Of a DNA stretch of 64,000 nucleotides, positions 48,755-50,886 are shown in pieces. The notes under the pieces were generated by a model. That model worked only from the letters and a program-made list of their open reading frames with translations, was not told the DNA's origin and made no database searches. Position 1 is the first letter of the stretch. Each line of letters starts with the position of its first letter. The position numbers and the translations under genes are program-made. The stretch comes from a virus (taxonomy: Duplodnaviria > Heunggongvirae > Uroviricota > Caudoviricetes). The DNA lies in IMG/VR virus record IMGVR_UViG_3300006734_000990, one strand, 5' to 3'.

Positions 48755-48800
48755 ATATAGAATAACAAGTTGCATGATGCAAGTTAATTACCTAAGTTAC
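48755..48800. promoter_or_regulatory. divergent promoter region with palindrome TTGCAT-G-ATGCAA and AAGTTGCA / GCAAGTTAA boxes
   Basis: Direct reading; related AAGTTGC boxes at 49852-49883 and 17520. Confidence 0.4.
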
Positions 48801-48826
48801 CCACAACAATGGTATTGGAGCACGTG

Positions 48827-49846
48827 ATGGATCTTACAGCAGAACATATTCTCAAAATGGGGAACCAAGAGGCTTCCAAGGTTTTCACTGGCGATGAGAA
48901 GGCTGACAAAAAGTCTTTTCGCACGCTTGCCGCGCGTTGGCACCCCGACCACTGCCAAGACCCCAAAGCGGCTGAAGTCTTCGCAAAGCTGATTTCACTT
49001 CGTGACGCCGCGCGCGGCGCCCCGCGGCTACCCGGGCAGCAATATATCTTCAGACAAGCCGGCGGCGGCGGACGCCAGGCCATGCGTTACCTGTCGCGCC
49101 ACCATATTGATACCGGCATCCTTCTGGTGGGTCCGGTCAGTATTGCTCAAGTCTATGAGTCCGACCTTGCTGATATCGCCGCGGCGGAGCTGCGCACCTT
49201 GGCGGGTTTCAAATTCGCGGATGCAAAGATGGAAGCGCAGATGCGGATGTTTCTGCCGCGCCATAAATCCCGTGTCGATCTGGCAGATGGGAAAGTGCTG
49301 ATCACCCATGCGCGGGCGCCCGGTGATGTTCTTCTGGCCGATCTGATTGCCGAGGATGGCCCTATGCCGCCCGAGCATGCGGCTTGGCTCTGCTCTGGGC
49401 TGATGAACGTCGCGGCCTGGCTGACCTGGGCGGGCAAGGTACACGGCGCCATTGGCCCCGAGGCAGTCATGGTTGACCCCGAAACCCATTCGGTACGGCT
49501 GGTCGCCGGCTGGGGGTTTGCGACCGATGTCGGAACCCGGCCCGCGATGCTGCCCAACCGCAGCTTGCAAATTGCCCCACAGATGGCCGTAAAGGGGCAG
49601 GTGGCTGATCCTTCGCTGGATCTCGAGTTGATCCGGCGTACCGTCTGTGAGGCATTGGGTGCGGCGTCCTTGAGCGGGTTGAGTGGGCTCGGCCTACCAG
49701 ATCCTGTCCGGAACTGGTTGATGCTGCCGCCTGGCAAGGACGGCATTGTTGATTACGCGAACTGGCAGAAGGCGCTGAGCGATGGATGGGGGGCGCGGCG
49801 CTTCGCCAAATACACCGGCGACGGGGTAGGGGTCTACGCTTCCTGA
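48827..49846 (+). CDS. J-domain protein fused to a protein-kinase-like (probably pseudokinase) domain
   Basis: FRTLAARWHPDHCQDPKAAEVFAKLISLRDAA = J-domain helix II/III with HPD; later VHGAIGPEAVMVDPETHSVRLVAGWGFAT parallels kinase catalytic loop HRDLKPENILLD...DFG with Asp replaced by Ala. Confidence 0.55.
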   Translation: MDLTAEHILKMGNQEASKVFTGDEKADKKSFRTLAARWHPDHCQDPKAAEVFAKLISLRDAARGAPRLPGQQYIFRQAGGGGRQAMRYLSRHHIDTGILLVGPVSIAQVYESDLADIAAAELRTLAGFKFADAKMEAQMRMFLPRHKSRVDLADGKVLITHARAPGDVLLADLIAEDGPMPPEHAAWLCSGLMNVAAWLTWAGKVHGAIGPEAVMVDPETHSVRLVAGWGFATDVGTRPAMLPNRSLQIAPQMAVKGQVADPSLDLELIRRTVCEALGAASLSGLSGLGLPDPVRNWLMLPPGKDGIVDYANWQKALSDGWGARRFAKYTGDGVGVYAS

Positions 49847-49924
49847 TTAAGTTGCGTTTTACAACTTGCAATGTGCAACTTAATAATCTATACCATGGGC
49901 AACACCATATGAAGGAGACCTACC

Positions 49925-50848
49925 ATGGGAAACGGACGTTGGGATAGCTCGGCATGGGCCGGCTACACTGCTCAGAACACCGCGGGCAAAACACAGAGCC
50001 AGATCTTCACATCTCGGCAGATGAAGGATGAATATAACCCGGCAAAGATCGAATTTCGCGAAAGCCGCGACAGCGCTGACAACCCTATGTCGACGCCGAT
50101 TGTTTTGGCTTCGGACGTGACAGGTTCGATGGGTATGATCGCCGAAAAGCTGATGCGCGATGGTTTGAATACTTTGGCCACCCAGATCTATGACCGCAAA
50201 CCGGTGACCGACCCGCATATCATGATCATGGGTGTGGGTGACGCCAAATCCGACCGGGCGCCTTTGCAGGTCACTCAGTTCGAGGCGGACATTCGTGTTG
50301 CTGAACAGGCCCGTGAGCTTTGGCTTGAAGGCGGCGGCGGCGGCAATGGCGGTGAATCCTACTCGGCTGCCCATCTTTTCGCAGCGACAAAGGTGCGTGC
50401 AGACGCAATCGAGAAACGTGGCCGTAAGGGCTATCTCTTCACCATTGGTGATGAACCCATCCACGATGGGATGACCAAGTCGGAGATTGAGCGGGTTCTG
50501 GGCATTACTGTCGAAGCAGACCTGTCGGCAATGGACATCATCCGTATGGTTCAACGCGACTGGGAAGTCTTCCACATCGCTCTGGTCAATGAAGGCTACT
50601 GCAACTGGGGCCAGTCGCGCGATCAGGTTCTCGCTTCCTGGCGCAAAATCCTGCCCGAGCGCACCATTCAGCTTGAGGATGTCAATGCTCTGGCCGAGAC
50701 CGTCGTGTCGCTGATCCAGGTGACCGAGGGCGCCAATGCGGGCGACGTGGCTGCCAGCTGGTCGGGCTCGACTGCGTTGACCGTGGCCAATGCCCTGAAA
50801 GGCGTGCCAGCCAAGACCGGCCAGTCGCGCGGCGTCCAGCGCTTGTAG
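49925..50848 (+). CDS. von Willebrand factor A domain protein (TerY-like), MIDAS DxTGS
   Basis: PIVLASDVTGSMG MIDAS; AAGGAG before ATG. Confidence 0.65.
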   Translation: MGNGRWDSSAWAGYTAQNTAGKTQSQIFTSRQMKDEYNPAKIEFRESRDSADNPMSTPIVLASDVTGSMGMIAEKLMRDGLNTLATQIYDRKPVTDPHIMIMGVGDAKSDRAPLQVTQFEADIRVAEQARELWLEGGGGGNGGESYSAAHLFAATKVRADAIEKRGRKGYLFTIGDEPIHDGMTKSEIERVLGITVEADLSAMDIIRMVQRDWEVFHIALVNEGYCNWGQSRDQVLASWRKILPERTIQLEDVNALAETVVSLIQVTEGANAGDVAASWSGSTALTVANALKGVPAKTGQSRGVQRL

Positions 50849-50855
50849 TAGATCG

Positions 50856-50886
50856 GCCCGGGCGAAAAGCCCGGGCCGATCCTCCT
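50856..50886 (+). terminator. 13-bp GC hairpin GATCGGCCCGGGC-GAAAA-GCCCGGGCCGATC (no U-tract)
   Basis: Perfect inverted repeat directly after vWA gene. Confidence 0.4.

What the first reader, a model, noticed from the sequence alone, without database searches (positions are those of the whole stretch)
48755..50886. J-domain-pseudokinase fusion plus TerY-like vWA protein, flanked by shared AAGTTGC operator-like boxes
The first protein combines an unmistakable DnaJ J-domain (HPD) with a segment resembling a protein-kinase catalytic core (HGAIGPE... / GWG, with the catalytic Asp replaced). The second is a vWA protein with MIDAS DxTGS. vWA plus Ser/Thr-kinase gene pairs form the TerY-P stress/defence triads; here the PP2C is missing and a J-domain is added. 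That architecture implies recruitment of Hsp70 to whatever the vWA/kinase-like pair senses. AAGTTGC(A) boxes recur upstream of both genes (48765, 49852-49883), and a perfect TTGCAT-G-ATGCAA palindrome sits in the divergent promoter. Both suggest a dedicated regulator.
Basis: partly seen in the sequence, partly recalled or inferred. Interest (0 to 1): 0.65.

Follow-up and report, generated by a model that had tools for sequence, protein, structure and literature searches.

The report
J-pseudokinase, vWA, PurA-like, NrtR cassette

Summary

The TerY-P reading is not supported. There is no PP2C, no active kinase and no TerY signature. The conserved partners are a divergently transcribed NrtR-family regulator (47988-48683) and a PurA-like enzyme (51930-53207). 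The enzyme keeps PurA's GTP/phosphotransfer residues but has replaced the aspartate loop.

The same gene order occurs in Alpha- and Gammaproteobacteria, Actinobacteria and cluster C mycobacteriophages. In 79 of 80 viral contigs vWA is followed directly by PurA-like.

Most likely this is an NrtR-repressed operon in which a J-protein/vWA pair assists a novel nucleotide ligase, possibly tied to NAD/ADP-ribose metabolism in phage-host conflict. The biochemical function is unknown. I found no literature on it.

The parts
47988..48683 (-). NrtR-family regulator: a degenerate Nudix domain plus a C-terminal winged helix, transcribed divergently from gene 1.
   Evidence: Pfam NrtR_WHD 1.5e-21, AraR_C 7.7e-11, NUDIX 1.8e-8. 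PDB 3gz5 (S. oneidensis NrtR) 9e-40 over residues 13-218. NCBIfam NrtR equivalog 158.6 bits, below its 400 cut-off. Present divergently in 17 of 20 related bacterial loci.
48767..48785 (.). Operator 1: near-palindrome AAGTTGCAT-G-ATGCAAGTT (core TTGCA-N3-TGCAA at 48770-48782) in the nrtR / gene 1 divergent promoter region.
   Evidence: The arms are kept and the N3 spacer is changed in an 84%-identical relative (TTGCATAATGCAA). Equivalent sites occur in L001, L003, L004, L006-L009 and L012.
48827..49846 (+). J-domain-pseudokinase protein, 339 aa. J-domain is about residues 5-62 (nt 48839-49012), with HPD at 48941-48949. Kinase-fold domain is about residues 70-330 (nt 49034-49816), with H-G-A at 49442-49450 and G-W-G at 49508-49516.
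49846..49884 (.). Operator 2: composite 39-bp palindrome (19-nt arms, 79% complementary). It holds the exact core TTGCA-N3-TGCAA at 49866-49878 and a one-mismatch copy at 49859-49871. It overlaps a promoter-like TTTACA-18-AATAAT at 49858-49887 upstream of the vWA gene.
   Evidence: Conserved arrays lie in the same spacer of L001, L003, L004, L006, L007 and L011 and in L108-L110.
49925..50848 (+). vWA-fold protein, 307 aa, with MIDAS residues D64-x-T66-x-S68 (nt 50114-50128) and D176 (nt 50450-50452). It carries a family-specific invariant loop E-G-G-G-G-N-G-G-E-S-Y.
   Evidence: phrog_2971 3.6e-49.
50851..50881 (+). Perfect 13-bp GC-rich hairpin directly after the vWA stop codon, with no T-run. 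It may be a transcript-end or processing structure that separates the two halves of the operon in this lineage.
   Evidence: Folding energy -31.8 kcal/mol, z = -5.6, 0 of 200 shuffles as stable.
50965..51943 (+). Two lineage-specific small ORFs (50965-51366, 133 aa; 51401-51943, 180 aa) inserted between the vWA and PurA-like genes. Function unknown.
   Evidence: No Pfam, PHROG, NCBIfam or PADLOC hits. Conserved in the same order in the close relatives L108-L110. Absent from all other loci.
51930..53207 (+). PurA-like (adenylosuccinate-synthetase-superfamily) enzyme, 425 aa. It is the invariant downstream partner of the vWA gene.
   Evidence: Pfam Adenylsucc_synt 1.5e-45, covering residues 8-292 only. 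PDB PurA 3e-28. NCBIfam purA 135 bits against a 402 cut-off, PurZ 40 against 300. Catalytic residues kept and the Asp loop replaced. Start position taken from relatives.

Best explanation
The two flagged genes belong to one conserved cassette. It consists of an NrtR-family repressor gene, transcribed divergently, followed by the genes for a J-domain-pseudokinase, a vWA protein and a PurA-like enzyme. In this lineage two extra small ORFs sit before the PurA-like gene.

Shown: the domain identities, the conserved gene order across phyla and phages, and the conserved palindromic operators.

Inferred, step 1: the NrtR-like protein binds the TTGCA-N3-TGCAA palindromes that overlap both promoters. 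It represses the operon until a nucleotide effector releases it. The effector is ADP-ribose in characterised NrtRs.

Inferred, step 2: the PurA-like protein is the catalytic output. It retains the GTP-dependent phosphoryl-activation machinery of PurA but not its aspartate loop or the IMP-phosphate contacts. It therefore probably ligates a different nucleophile to a different oxo-purine-like nucleotide.

Inferred, step 3: the vWA protein docks onto a partner protein through its MIDAS site. The J-domain-pseudokinase binds as a catalytically dead scaffold and uses its HPD J-domain to recruit host DnaK/Hsp70. Together they would act as an accessory or activase pair for the enzyme, an Hsp70-based analogue of MoxR-vWA activases.

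Inferred, step 4: the physiological setting is nucleotide and NAD/ADP-ribose metabolism at the phage-host interface. Phages carry the vWA/PurA-like core. Bacteria carry it on mobile DNA under NrtR control.
For: Cassette in bacteria: tblastn finds NrtR(-), J-pseudokinase, vWA and PurA-like in that order in 15 of the 19 genome loci from Alpha- and Gammaproteobacteria; three more keep the three genes without a detectable NrtR and one contig ends inside the J-pseudokinase gene. A Rhodovulum plasmid has all but the PurA-like gene. A. vitis, Acetobacter, Rhodococcus and Tsukamurella plasmids show the same order. Clustering of all flanking ORFs finds no other conserved neighbour.

Cassette in phages: cluster C mycobacteriophages have the annotated genes 'serine/threonine kinase', hypothetical protein and 'PurA-like'. 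That kinase is a full-length homologue, with HPD and H-G-A. In 80 viral contigs, 79 have PurA-like immediately after vWA, often with overlapping stop and start codons, and 23 have the J-pseudokinase immediately before it.

Family sizes: the J-pseudokinase family has 810 clusters (50% identity) at E<1e-30. The vWA family has more than 6,800 clusters.

Operators. A shared TTG-N7-CAA core also appears in the Competibacter loci. This has the same geometry as the published NrtR core GT-N7-AC and 21-bp palindrome (PMC2330246).

NrtR identity.

PurA-like residues: D13, K16, H41, Q224 and T239 are kept. R143 is lost, the GATTGRRRR loop becomes N-x-W-Q-G-x-L-R, and K331 becomes C or H.

NAD link: NAMPT, nicotinamidase-like, NadE and PRTase-like genes lie within 6 kb in 4 independent viral lineages. 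A Rhizobium phage has an NMNAT/Nudix gene and a PRTase nearby. Vibrio phage pv27 has a NADAR gene nearby. Actinobacterial copies carry a co-directional NrtR-like Nudix gene.

Support for MIDAS importance: in some cluster C phages an apparent intein sits 4 residues before the MIDAS Asp.
Against: No step of the mechanism has been tested. Protein-protein contacts, DnaK recruitment, NrtR binding and the effector are all inferred.

The window's J-domain is below Pfam's gathering score on its own.

The NAD-gene association holds for only 13 of 80 viral loci (4 lineages) and could reflect general clustering of metabolic genes in large phages.

NrtR-family regulators also control non-NAD pathways, such as AraR (PMC4666351), so the effector need not be ADP-ribose.

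Most phage copies lack the J-pseudokinase and have an unrelated ~120-aa ORF instead, so Hsp70 recruitment cannot be essential to the core.

In this window a strong hairpin and two extra ORFs separate vWA from PurA-like, which loosens the coupling.

Confidence: 0.45

Rival explanations
1. Conflict-system reading. The vWA protein and the pseudokinase are sensors of a foreign or damaged protein. The PurA-like enzyme is the effector: it makes a signalling or toxic nucleotide, or drains GTP or a purine nucleotide. The cassette would then be an anti-phage defence in bacteria, or a counter-defence or superinfection-exclusion module in phages, rather than an enzyme with a chaperone pair.
For: vWA plus kinase pairings recur in predicted conflict systems (PMC7159879). 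The cassette sits on plasmids and islands with variable flanks. It is frequent in phages. NrtR-like Nudix regulators head predicted ADP-ribose-related immune operons that sometimes include a vWA protein (PMC9503650).
Against: No hit to any PADLOC model for the vWA, PurA-like or window J-pseudokinase proteins. The system is carried by hundreds of lytic phages with tight vWA/PurA-like coupling, which looks more like a metabolic function for the phage. No recognisable toxin or effector domain is present.
Confidence: 0.25
2. One reading: a TerY-P-type stress/defence triad (TerY vWA, Ser/Thr kinase, PP2C) that has lost its phosphatase and gained a J-domain.
For: A vWA gene lies adjacent to a kinase-fold gene.
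Against: No PP2C in any related locus. The kinase lacks its catalytic residues in all 191 members examined, so there is no phosphorylation for a phosphatase to reverse. The vWA protein matches no Pfam VWA or TerY model. The invariant third component is a PurA-like enzyme.
Confidence: 0.05
3. The N-terminal domain is a structural relic of a J-domain that no longer engages Hsp70. The protein is simply a scaffold or ligand-binding pseudokinase subunit of a vWA/PurA-like complex.
For: The window protein's DnaJ score is sub-threshold. Most phage versions of the core do without any J-protein.
Against: HPD is essentially invariant (190, 183 and 188 of 191) across lineages that share only ~17-35% identity overall. 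That is hard to explain without selection for Hsp70 ATPase stimulation. The profile hits to solved J-domains cover helices II-III.
Confidence: 0.15
4. Ordinary biology: the downstream gene is a spare purA for purine synthesis, and the neighbouring genes are unrelated passengers.
For: All database sources name the enzyme 'adenylosuccinate synthase'.
Against: It scores one third of the PurA equivalog cut-off. It lacks the aspartate loop and R143. It is linked to this particular vWA family in 79 of 80 viral loci and in all bacterial loci.
Confidence: 0.03

Closest known systems
TerY-P triads, and kinase/PP2C/stand-alone vWA triads of prokaryotic conflict systems (the TerY-P description is recalled from memory; PMC7159879)
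   Same: A stand-alone cytoplasmic vWA/MIDAS protein is encoded next to a eukaryotic-type kinase-fold protein, on mobile or variable genomic regions.
   Different: No PP2C. The kinase is catalytically dead and carries a J-domain. The vWA protein is not detectably TerY-like. The invariant partner is a PurA-like enzyme. An NrtR regulator is attached.
[not shown]
   Same: A vWA/MIDAS adaptor is paired with a component that brings in an ATP-driven remodelling machine, and both are encoded beside the enzyme they serve.
   Different: The ATPase is not encoded in the cassette. A J-domain would recruit the host's Hsp70 instead of a MoxR ring. This is an analogy only, not homology of the partner.
NrtR regulons, e.g. 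S. oneidensis NrtR controlling prs-nadV (PMC2330246; PDB 3gz5)
   Same: The same regulator architecture, with strong full-length similarity (9e-40). Palindromic operators overlap promoters and have a dinucleotide-N7-dinucleotide core. The regulator is adjacent to its target operon.
   Different: The target genes are not known NAD biosynthesis or salvage genes. The operator core is TTG-N7-CAA rather than GT-N7-AC. The protein is below the NCBIfam equivalog cut-off. The effector is untested.
Adenylosuccinate synthetase PurA and phage PurZ
   Same: The same superfamily. The P-loop GDEGKG, D13, K16, H41, Q224, T239 and D333 are kept, so GTP-dependent phosphoryl activation is plausible.
   Different: The aspartate-binding loop and R303/R305 are replaced by a family-specific N-x-W-Q-G motif. 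R143, T129 and K331 are lost. The proteobacterial copies, including this window's, have a C-terminal deletion. Scores are far below the PurA and PurZ cut-offs. The enzyme is always paired with a vWA protein.
Phage-encoded J-domain protein Rki of phage RB43 (PMC3486835), and the human DNAJB1-PRKACA fusion (PDB 4wb7, hit)
   Same: Rki is a precedent for a phage J-protein that hijacks DnaK. DNAJB1-PRKACA is the only solved J-domain-kinase chimera.
   Different: Rki has no kinase-fold domain and acts on sigma32. DNAJB1-PRKACA is a somatic oncogenic fusion with an active kinase, not a natural family.
Phage NAD+ reconstitution pathways NARP1, NARP2 and NARP3 (bioRxiv 10.1101/2024.02.11.579819; PMC13464706)
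   Same: Phage-borne modules that sit among NAD-salvage genes. ADP-ribose is the relevant metabolite.
   Different: None of the defining enzymes (Adps/Namat, Nampt/Nmnat, PnuC/NadR-like) is part of this cassette. A PurA-like enzyme has not been implicated in any of them.

Membership tests
J-domain proteins (Hsp40 co-chaperones) | HPD tripeptide in the loop between helices II and III | tested here: met
   H39-P40-D41. 190, 183 and 188 of 191 family members conserve H, P and D. In the AF2 model the motif lies between helices 24-38 and 48-62.
J-domain proteins (Hsp40 co-chaperones) | Profile similarity to the J-domain | tested here: met
   The window protein alone is sub-threshold (Pfam DnaJ 20.2 bits against 27.8). 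However, 22 of 26 family members hit DnaJ, best 1.3e-7, and the family profile hits 31 solved J-domains, best 1.4e-6.
J-domain proteins (Hsp40 co-chaperones) | HPD-dependent stimulation of the Hsp70 ATPase | not testable with these tools
   Needs biochemistry or a two-hybrid assay.
Eukaryotic-type protein kinase superfamily | Bilobal kinase fold | tested here: met
   [not shown]
Eukaryotic-type protein kinase superfamily (active enzymes) | Catalytic set: beta3 Lys, HRD Asp, DFG Asp | tested here: not met
   The window protein has H-G-A, G-W-G and no beta3 Lys. None of 191 members has all three residues. It is therefore a pseudokinase.
vWA domain proteins | vWA (Rossmann-like) fold with a MIDAS motif DxSxS...T...D | tested here: met
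   [not shown]
TerY-P triad | TerY-type vWA protein | tested here: not met
   No Pfam family of any kind, including VWA and TerY models, at E<0.1. The only family hit is an unannotated PHROG.
TerY-P triad | Active Ser/Thr kinase partner | tested here: not met
   Catalytic residues are absent family-wide.
TerY-P triad | PP2C phosphatase in the same operon | tested here: not met
   Only NrtR, J-pseudokinase, vWA and PurA-like are conserved in 20 bacterial loci. Among viral neighbour clusters found in 6 or more loci, the nine scanned against Pfam gave no PP2C hit; the others were not scanned.
[quoted passage not shown] | N-terminal Nudix-like domain plus C-terminal winged-helix DNA-binding domain | tested here: met
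   Pfam NUDIX, NrtR_WHD and AraR_C. Full-length match to S. oneidensis NrtR 3gz5 at 9e-40. The Nudix box is degenerate, read directly from the sequence.
[quoted passage not shown] | Reaches the NCBIfam equivalog cut-off for the ADPR-responsive repressor | tested here: not met
   158.6 bits against a 400 cut-off. It is a family member, not a demonstrated equivalog.
[quoted passage not shown] | Conserved palindromic operator overlapping the promoters of adjacent target genes | tested here: met
   TTGCA-N3-TGCAA at both promoters. 30 sites lie in 2.86 kb of equivalent spacers, against 9 in 233 kb elsewhere. Binding itself was not tested.
[quoted passage not shown] | ADP-ribose as the de-repressing effector | not testable with these tools
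   Needs EMSA with and without ADPR.
Adenylosuccinate synthetase (PurA) / PurZ | GTP-binding P-loop and catalytic Asp13, His41, Gln224 | tested here: met
   All are conserved in 15 PurA-like sequences.
Adenylosuccinate synthetase (PurA) / PurZ | Aspartate-binding loop (T300-T301, R303, R305) and IMP 5'-phosphate contacts (R143, T129) | tested here: not met
   The loop is replaced by N-x-W-Q-G-x-L-R, R143 is lost and T129 becomes Cys.
Adenylosuccinate synthetase (PurA) / PurZ | Reaches the curated equivalog score | tested here: not met
   purA 135 and 129 bits against cut-offs of 402 and 396. PurZ 40 bits against 300.
MoxR-vWA activase systems | MoxR-type AAA+ ATPase encoded with the vWA gene | tested here: not met
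   Clustering found no conserved neighbour beyond the cassette genes in bacterial loci, and the viral neighbour clusters scanned against Pfam contained no ATPase. The resemblance is functional analogy only.

The most novel reading that the evidence does not exclude
The PurA-like enzyme carries out a previously unknown GTP-driven nucleotide repair or re-synthesis reaction. Candidate reactions are rebuilding NAD+ or an adenine nucleotide from a cleaved or deaminated product without aspartate. The vWA protein plus an Hsp70-recruiting pseudokinase would assemble, activate or gate the enzyme. In bacteria the operon is switched on by ADP-ribose through NrtR. In large phages, including cluster C mycobacteriophages, it serves as a counter-measure to nucleotide- or NAD-targeting immunity. 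This would be a new pathway class and the first Hsp70/J-protein-dependent 'activase' for a metabolic enzyme in phage-host conflict.
Probability: 0.15. Interest if true: 0.85.

Novelty: new variant of a known kind. Interest (0 to 1): 0.66.

Why it matters
The domains are familiar: J-domain, pseudokinase, vWA, PurA superfamily and NrtR. Their fixed combination is not described in the literature I could search. It is nevertheless common, with hundreds to thousands of sequence clusters across Proteobacteria, Actinobacteria, more than 200 sequenced mycobacteriophages, and Vibrio and Rhizobium phages.

It gives a concrete, testable handle on three open questions:
- What the mis-annotated 'adenylosuccinate synthetases' of large phages actually make.
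- What bacterial and phage pseudokinases do.
- Whether Hsp70 can be recruited by a dedicated J-protein to a vWA/enzyme complex in the way MoxR ATPases are.

The NrtR link and the NAD-salvage neighbours in phages place it next to the currently active field of NAD+/ADP-ribose-centred immunity and counter-immunity. It also corrects the annotation of thousands of 'PurA' and 'Ser/Thr kinase' genes.

Tried and rejected
1. AAGTTGC as the motif. It is not enriched window-wide (8 found, 7.3 expected). It was replaced by the palindrome TTGCA-N3-TGCAA.

2. Counting TGCAA/TTGCA pentamer clusters. This was not discriminating: 2 clusters found against about 2.9 in simulated sequence.

3. A third and fourth operator. 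54522-54534 is not conserved in the close relative and was rejected. 44838-44866 is conserved but sits in a stretch that is 95% identical overall, so it is uninformative. It is listed as noticed.

4. PADLOC gave no hit for the window J-pseudokinase, vWA, PurA-like or NrtR proteins. The mycobacteriophage homologue hits only generic kinase models.

5. Seven literature searches and four papers searched or read in part found no description of the cassette. One search failed on syntax.

The afdb50 fold library was unavailable.

7. Pfam Pkinase hits none of the 26 proteobacterial members. The kinase call rests on structure and on the phage homologue.

8. Housekeeping PurA, PurZ, the TerY-P triad and NARP1-3 membership were each tested and rejected (see Membership tests).

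9. Rfam found only the two tRNAs in the window.

10. No Pfam identity was found for the two inserted ORFs, for the ~120-aa phage ORF, or for pv27 gp142.
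Full report
**1. What is at the coordinates**

The region holds two co-directional ORFs, 48809/48827-49846 and 49925-50848. Upstream lies a divergently transcribed ORF, 47988-48683 (-). I take ATG 48827 as the start of gene 1. A GGAG lies 6 nt upstream, and the 100%-identical database protein is 339 aa.

**2. Gene 1 is a J-domain fused to a dead kinase**

By sequence alone the evidence is thin. Pfam DnaJ gives E=7e-4, 20.2 bits against a 27.8 cut-off. 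There is no Pfam kinase hit, and a PHROG 'kinase' family matches at 1.4e-4.

At family level the J-domain is clear:
- 22 of 26 homologues hit Pfam DnaJ, best 1.3e-7.
- A family profile searched against the PDB returns 31 J-domains among 33 hits, best 1.4e-6, covering profile positions 22-72. It also returns the pseudokinase VRK3.
- In 191 aligned family members HPD is H 190, P 183, D 188.
- An AlphaFold2 model built from the family alignment is confident (pLDDT 90.8). It places HPD in the loop between two long helices, as in J-domains.

The catalytic set is gone. H-G-A replaces HRD, G-W-G replaces DFG, and there is no beta3 Lys. Across the 191 members the HRD-Asp position is Ala in 123, Asp in 33 and Gly in 24. 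The DFG-Asp position is Gly in 184. No member has HRD-Asp, DFG-Asp and beta3-Lys together.

**3. Gene 2 is a vWA protein**

'vWA with MIDAS' is confirmed. 'TerY-like' has no sequence support.

**4. The boxes are a conserved operator**

The bare 7-mer AAGTTGC is not enriched. The two promoter regions each hold an exact TTGCA-N3-TGCAA palindrome, at 48770-48782 and 49866-49878. These are the only two exact copies in 64 kb, against 0.10 expected.
- The first copy lies inside a 19-bp near-palindrome.
- The second lies inside a 39-bp composite palindrome that overlaps a promoter-like TTTACA-18-AATAAT.

In 13 alphaproteobacterial loci that encode homologues, sites with at most one mismatch number 30 in the 2.86 kb of the two equivalent spacers. 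Elsewhere there are 9 in 233 kb, an enrichment of about 270-fold.

In an 84%-identical relative the arms are kept while the N3 spacer differs. Competibacter loci carry GTTATTTG-N7-CAAATAAC palindromes upstream. These share the TTG-N7-CAA core. That geometry matches the published NrtR operators, which are 21-bp palindromes with core GT-N7-AC (PMC2330246).

**5. The regulator**

The divergent gene is an NrtR-family protein:
- Pfam NrtR_WHD 1.5e-21, plus NUDIX.
- A full-length match to S. oneidensis NrtR (PDB 3gz5) at 9e-40, and to AraR at 6e-32.
- It is below NCBI's equivalog cut-off.
- Its Nudix box is degenerate, read directly from the sequence.

It is present, divergently, in 17 of 20 related bacterial loci. 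Binding to the palindromes and the nature of the effector are inferred.

**6. The missing partner and the real unit**

tblastn of the window's neighbours against 19 genome loci and a Rhodovulum plasmid shows a fixed order: NrtR(-), J-pseudokinase, vWA, then an adenylosuccinate-synthetase-like gene. The genome loci come from Kiloniellaceae, Rhizobium, Mesorhizobium, Rhodobacteraceae, Teichococcus, Competibacter and Contendobacter. Clustering all flanking ORFs finds no other conserved gene.

The same order is annotated on other replicons:
- Agrobacterium vitis and Acetobacter plasmids.
- Rhodococcus and Tsukamurella plasmids, where an NrtR-like Nudix gene lies downstream and co-directional.
- Cluster C mycobacteriophages, as 'serine/threonine kinase', hypothetical protein and 'PurA-like adenylosuccinate synthetase'. 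This covers 201 Mycobacterium phage records.

The mycobacteriophage 'kinase' aligns end to end with the window protein. It has HPD and H-G-A.

In the window the PurA-like gene is 51930-53207. It is separated from the vWA gene by a strong hairpin (-31.8 kcal/mol, z = -5.6) and by two small ORFs. Those ORFs are conserved only in close relatives.

In IMG/VR, 251 viral stretches encode the vWA family. Of the best 80 loci, 79 have the PurA-like gene directly downstream, often with overlapping stop and start codons. Twenty-three have the J-pseudokinase directly upstream, and none has NrtR. The Jk-less loci usually carry an unrelated ~120-aa ORF in that position (49 loci).

The layers are therefore:
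- vWA + PurA-like is the obligate core.
- The J-pseudokinase is a frequent accessory. It has 810 clusters (50% identity) at E<1e-30 in a 1.84-billion-protein library, all about 330-370 aa.
- NrtR is the cellular regulatory add-on.

**7. The enzyme is neither PurA nor PurZ**

It reaches one third of the PurA equivalog score and far less for PurZ. Pfam covers only residues 8-292.

- The P-loop, D13, K16, H41, Q224, T239 and D333 are conserved.
- R143 is lost and T129 becomes Cys.
- V273 becomes an invariant His.
- The aspartate loop GATTGRRRR is replaced by a family-specific N-x-W-Q-G-x-L-R.
- K331 becomes Cys or His.
- The proteobacterial members, including this window's, have a C-terminal deletion.

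I infer that GTP-dependent phosphoryl activation is retained but both co-substrates differ from PurA's. Every database source nevertheless names it adenylosuccinate synthase.

**8. Physiological context**

The link to ADP-ribose/NAD is circumstantial but comes from several independent directions:
- NrtR-type regulators in essentially all bacterial copies.
- NAMPT, nicotinamidase-like, NadE and PRTase-like genes within 6 kb in four independent viral lineages (13 of 80 loci).
- An NMN-adenylyltransferase/Nudix gene and a PRTase next to the pair in a Rhizobium phage.
- A NADAR gene two genes upstream in Vibrio phage pv27.

Against this, NrtR-family proteins also regulate sugar pathways, and large phages cluster metabolic genes in general.

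**9. Mechanism**

The best-supported model is an NrtR-repressed operon whose output is the PurA-like ligase. The vWA protein would act as a MIDAS adaptor. The J-domain-pseudokinase would act as a dead-kinase scaffold that recruits host DnaK.

This resembles MoxR-vWA activase pairs in logic, but the ATPase would be supplied by the host's Hsp70. An apparent intein interrupts the vWA gene of some cluster C phages four residues before the MIDAS Asp. It begins with Cys, the following extein residue is Cys, and there are weak Hint hits. This is consistent with that site being functionally critical.

Everything beyond domain identity, synteny and motif conservation is inference. The main rival is a sensor/effector conflict system. 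The TerY-P model and a housekeeping purA paralogue are disfavoured by direct tests.

**10. Novelty**

Seven full-text searches and four papers found no description of this cassette. The nearest published ideas are kinase/PP2C/vWA triads and NrtR- or WYL-headed ADP-ribose operons that sometimes include a vWA 'chaperone' (PMC7159879, PMC9503650).

I rate it a new variant of known kinds: an NrtR-controlled operon, and a vWA co-chaperone module attached to an enzyme. It has unknown biochemistry and unusually wide distribution. The subscription literature was not searchable, so prior description cannot be excluded.

Noticed in passing
L111 (Mycobacterium phage FoxtrotP1) 2501-4285, compared with L022 (Blubba) 6001-7026: In some cluster C mycobacteriophages the vWA gene carries a 254-aa in-frame insertion. 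It begins with Cys and is followed by Cys, and it gives weak Pfam Hint and intein-splicing hits (1.6e-3, 8e-3). It lies four residues upstream of the MIDAS Asp (…RKGY|C…|CIFIGDE…). It is probably an intein marking a functionally critical site.
   Followed up: partly
Viral loci L055-L107, directly upstream of the vWA gene (e.g. L069 5654-5998): In 49 of 80 viral loci a conserved ~120-aa ORF occupies the position that the J-pseudokinase has elsewhere. Its sequence includes GAFxSSLKRNNKQIRDDRA… and ends …RYxYLFG. It has no Pfam hit. It may be an alternative first component of the module.
   Followed up: partly
window 44838-44866: An array of TGCAA repeats (GGCAAGATGCAATATGCAACTGTGCAA) resembles the operator arrays of homologous loci. 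It lies in an intergenic stretch that is 95% identical to the relative L108, which is more conserved than the neighbouring coding DNA. It could be an extra operator or a small non-coding element.
   Followed up: partly
window 54694-54769, 54783-54858, 55227-56093 and 30892-32028: Two tandem tRNA-Glu genes (anticodons UUC and CUC) lie next to a short class-I Glu/Gln-type tRNA-synthetase catalytic-domain gene. This looks GluQ-RS-like, though only Pfam tRNA-synt_1c was tested. A Trp/Tyr-type tRNA-synthetase-like gene lies elsewhere in the window. Such translation genes are unusual on what looks like an ORFan-rich mobile element or megaplasmid.
   Followed up: no
window 50965-51366 and 51401-51943: Two small ORFs of unknown function (133 and 180 aa) are inserted inside the cassette between the vWA and PurA-like genes. 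The second starts with a CPTC motif. They are conserved only in the closest relatives (L108-L110). The second ORF overlaps the PurA-like start codon by 14 nt.
   Followed up: partly
L008 (Mesorhizobium sp. SP-1A) 11060-12904: The vWA gene is tandemly duplicated in this locus. The two paralogues are 65% and 56% identical to the window protein and lie between the J-pseudokinase and the PurA-like gene.
   Followed up: no
L001 (Rhodovulum sp. MB263 plasmid pRSMBA) 9976-12904: RefSeq annotation of the cassette is misleading. The vWA gene is named 'TonB-dependent receptor'. The J-pseudokinase is called as a truncated 'hypothetical protein'. The NUDIX CDS is over-extended. No PurA-like gene was detected downstream in this locus.
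   Followed up: no
window 53221-53745 (-): An Imp-YgjV family inner-membrane protein gene (Pfam 3.9e-12) lies immediately downstream of the PurA-like gene. Its strand assignment differs between my ORF list and the gene calls of the relative L108.
   Followed up: no
L023 (Rhizobium phage RHph_TM21B) 5679-5996; window 46645-47850: The ORF directly upstream of the phage vWA gene has a HIRAN domain (3e-7). The 401-aa protein upstream of nrtR in the window gives a weak HIRAN hit (0.025) and matches phage families of unknown function (phrog_4776, 3e-23).
   Followed up: no
Viral loci, e.g. L086 1739-3193 and L068 410-2101; L002 10101-11609: TROVE/Ro60-vWA genes (15 loci) and DUF7788/DUF2828 vWA-type genes (14 loci) recur within 6 kb of the vWA/PurA-like pair among the 80 viral loci. 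Vibrio phage pv27 has a gene annotated only as 'RNA-binding protein' in a similar position, which I did not check. An IMPDH/GMP-reductase-like gene also recurs, in 12 loci.
   Followed up: no
window 34992-36326, 25403-26395 and 62081-63580: Other genes in the window: a HipA-like kinase gene (Pfam HipA_C 7e-39), a weak PLD-like hit, and an RTX-repeat protein. Most other large ORFs in the window have no Pfam match.
   Followed up: no
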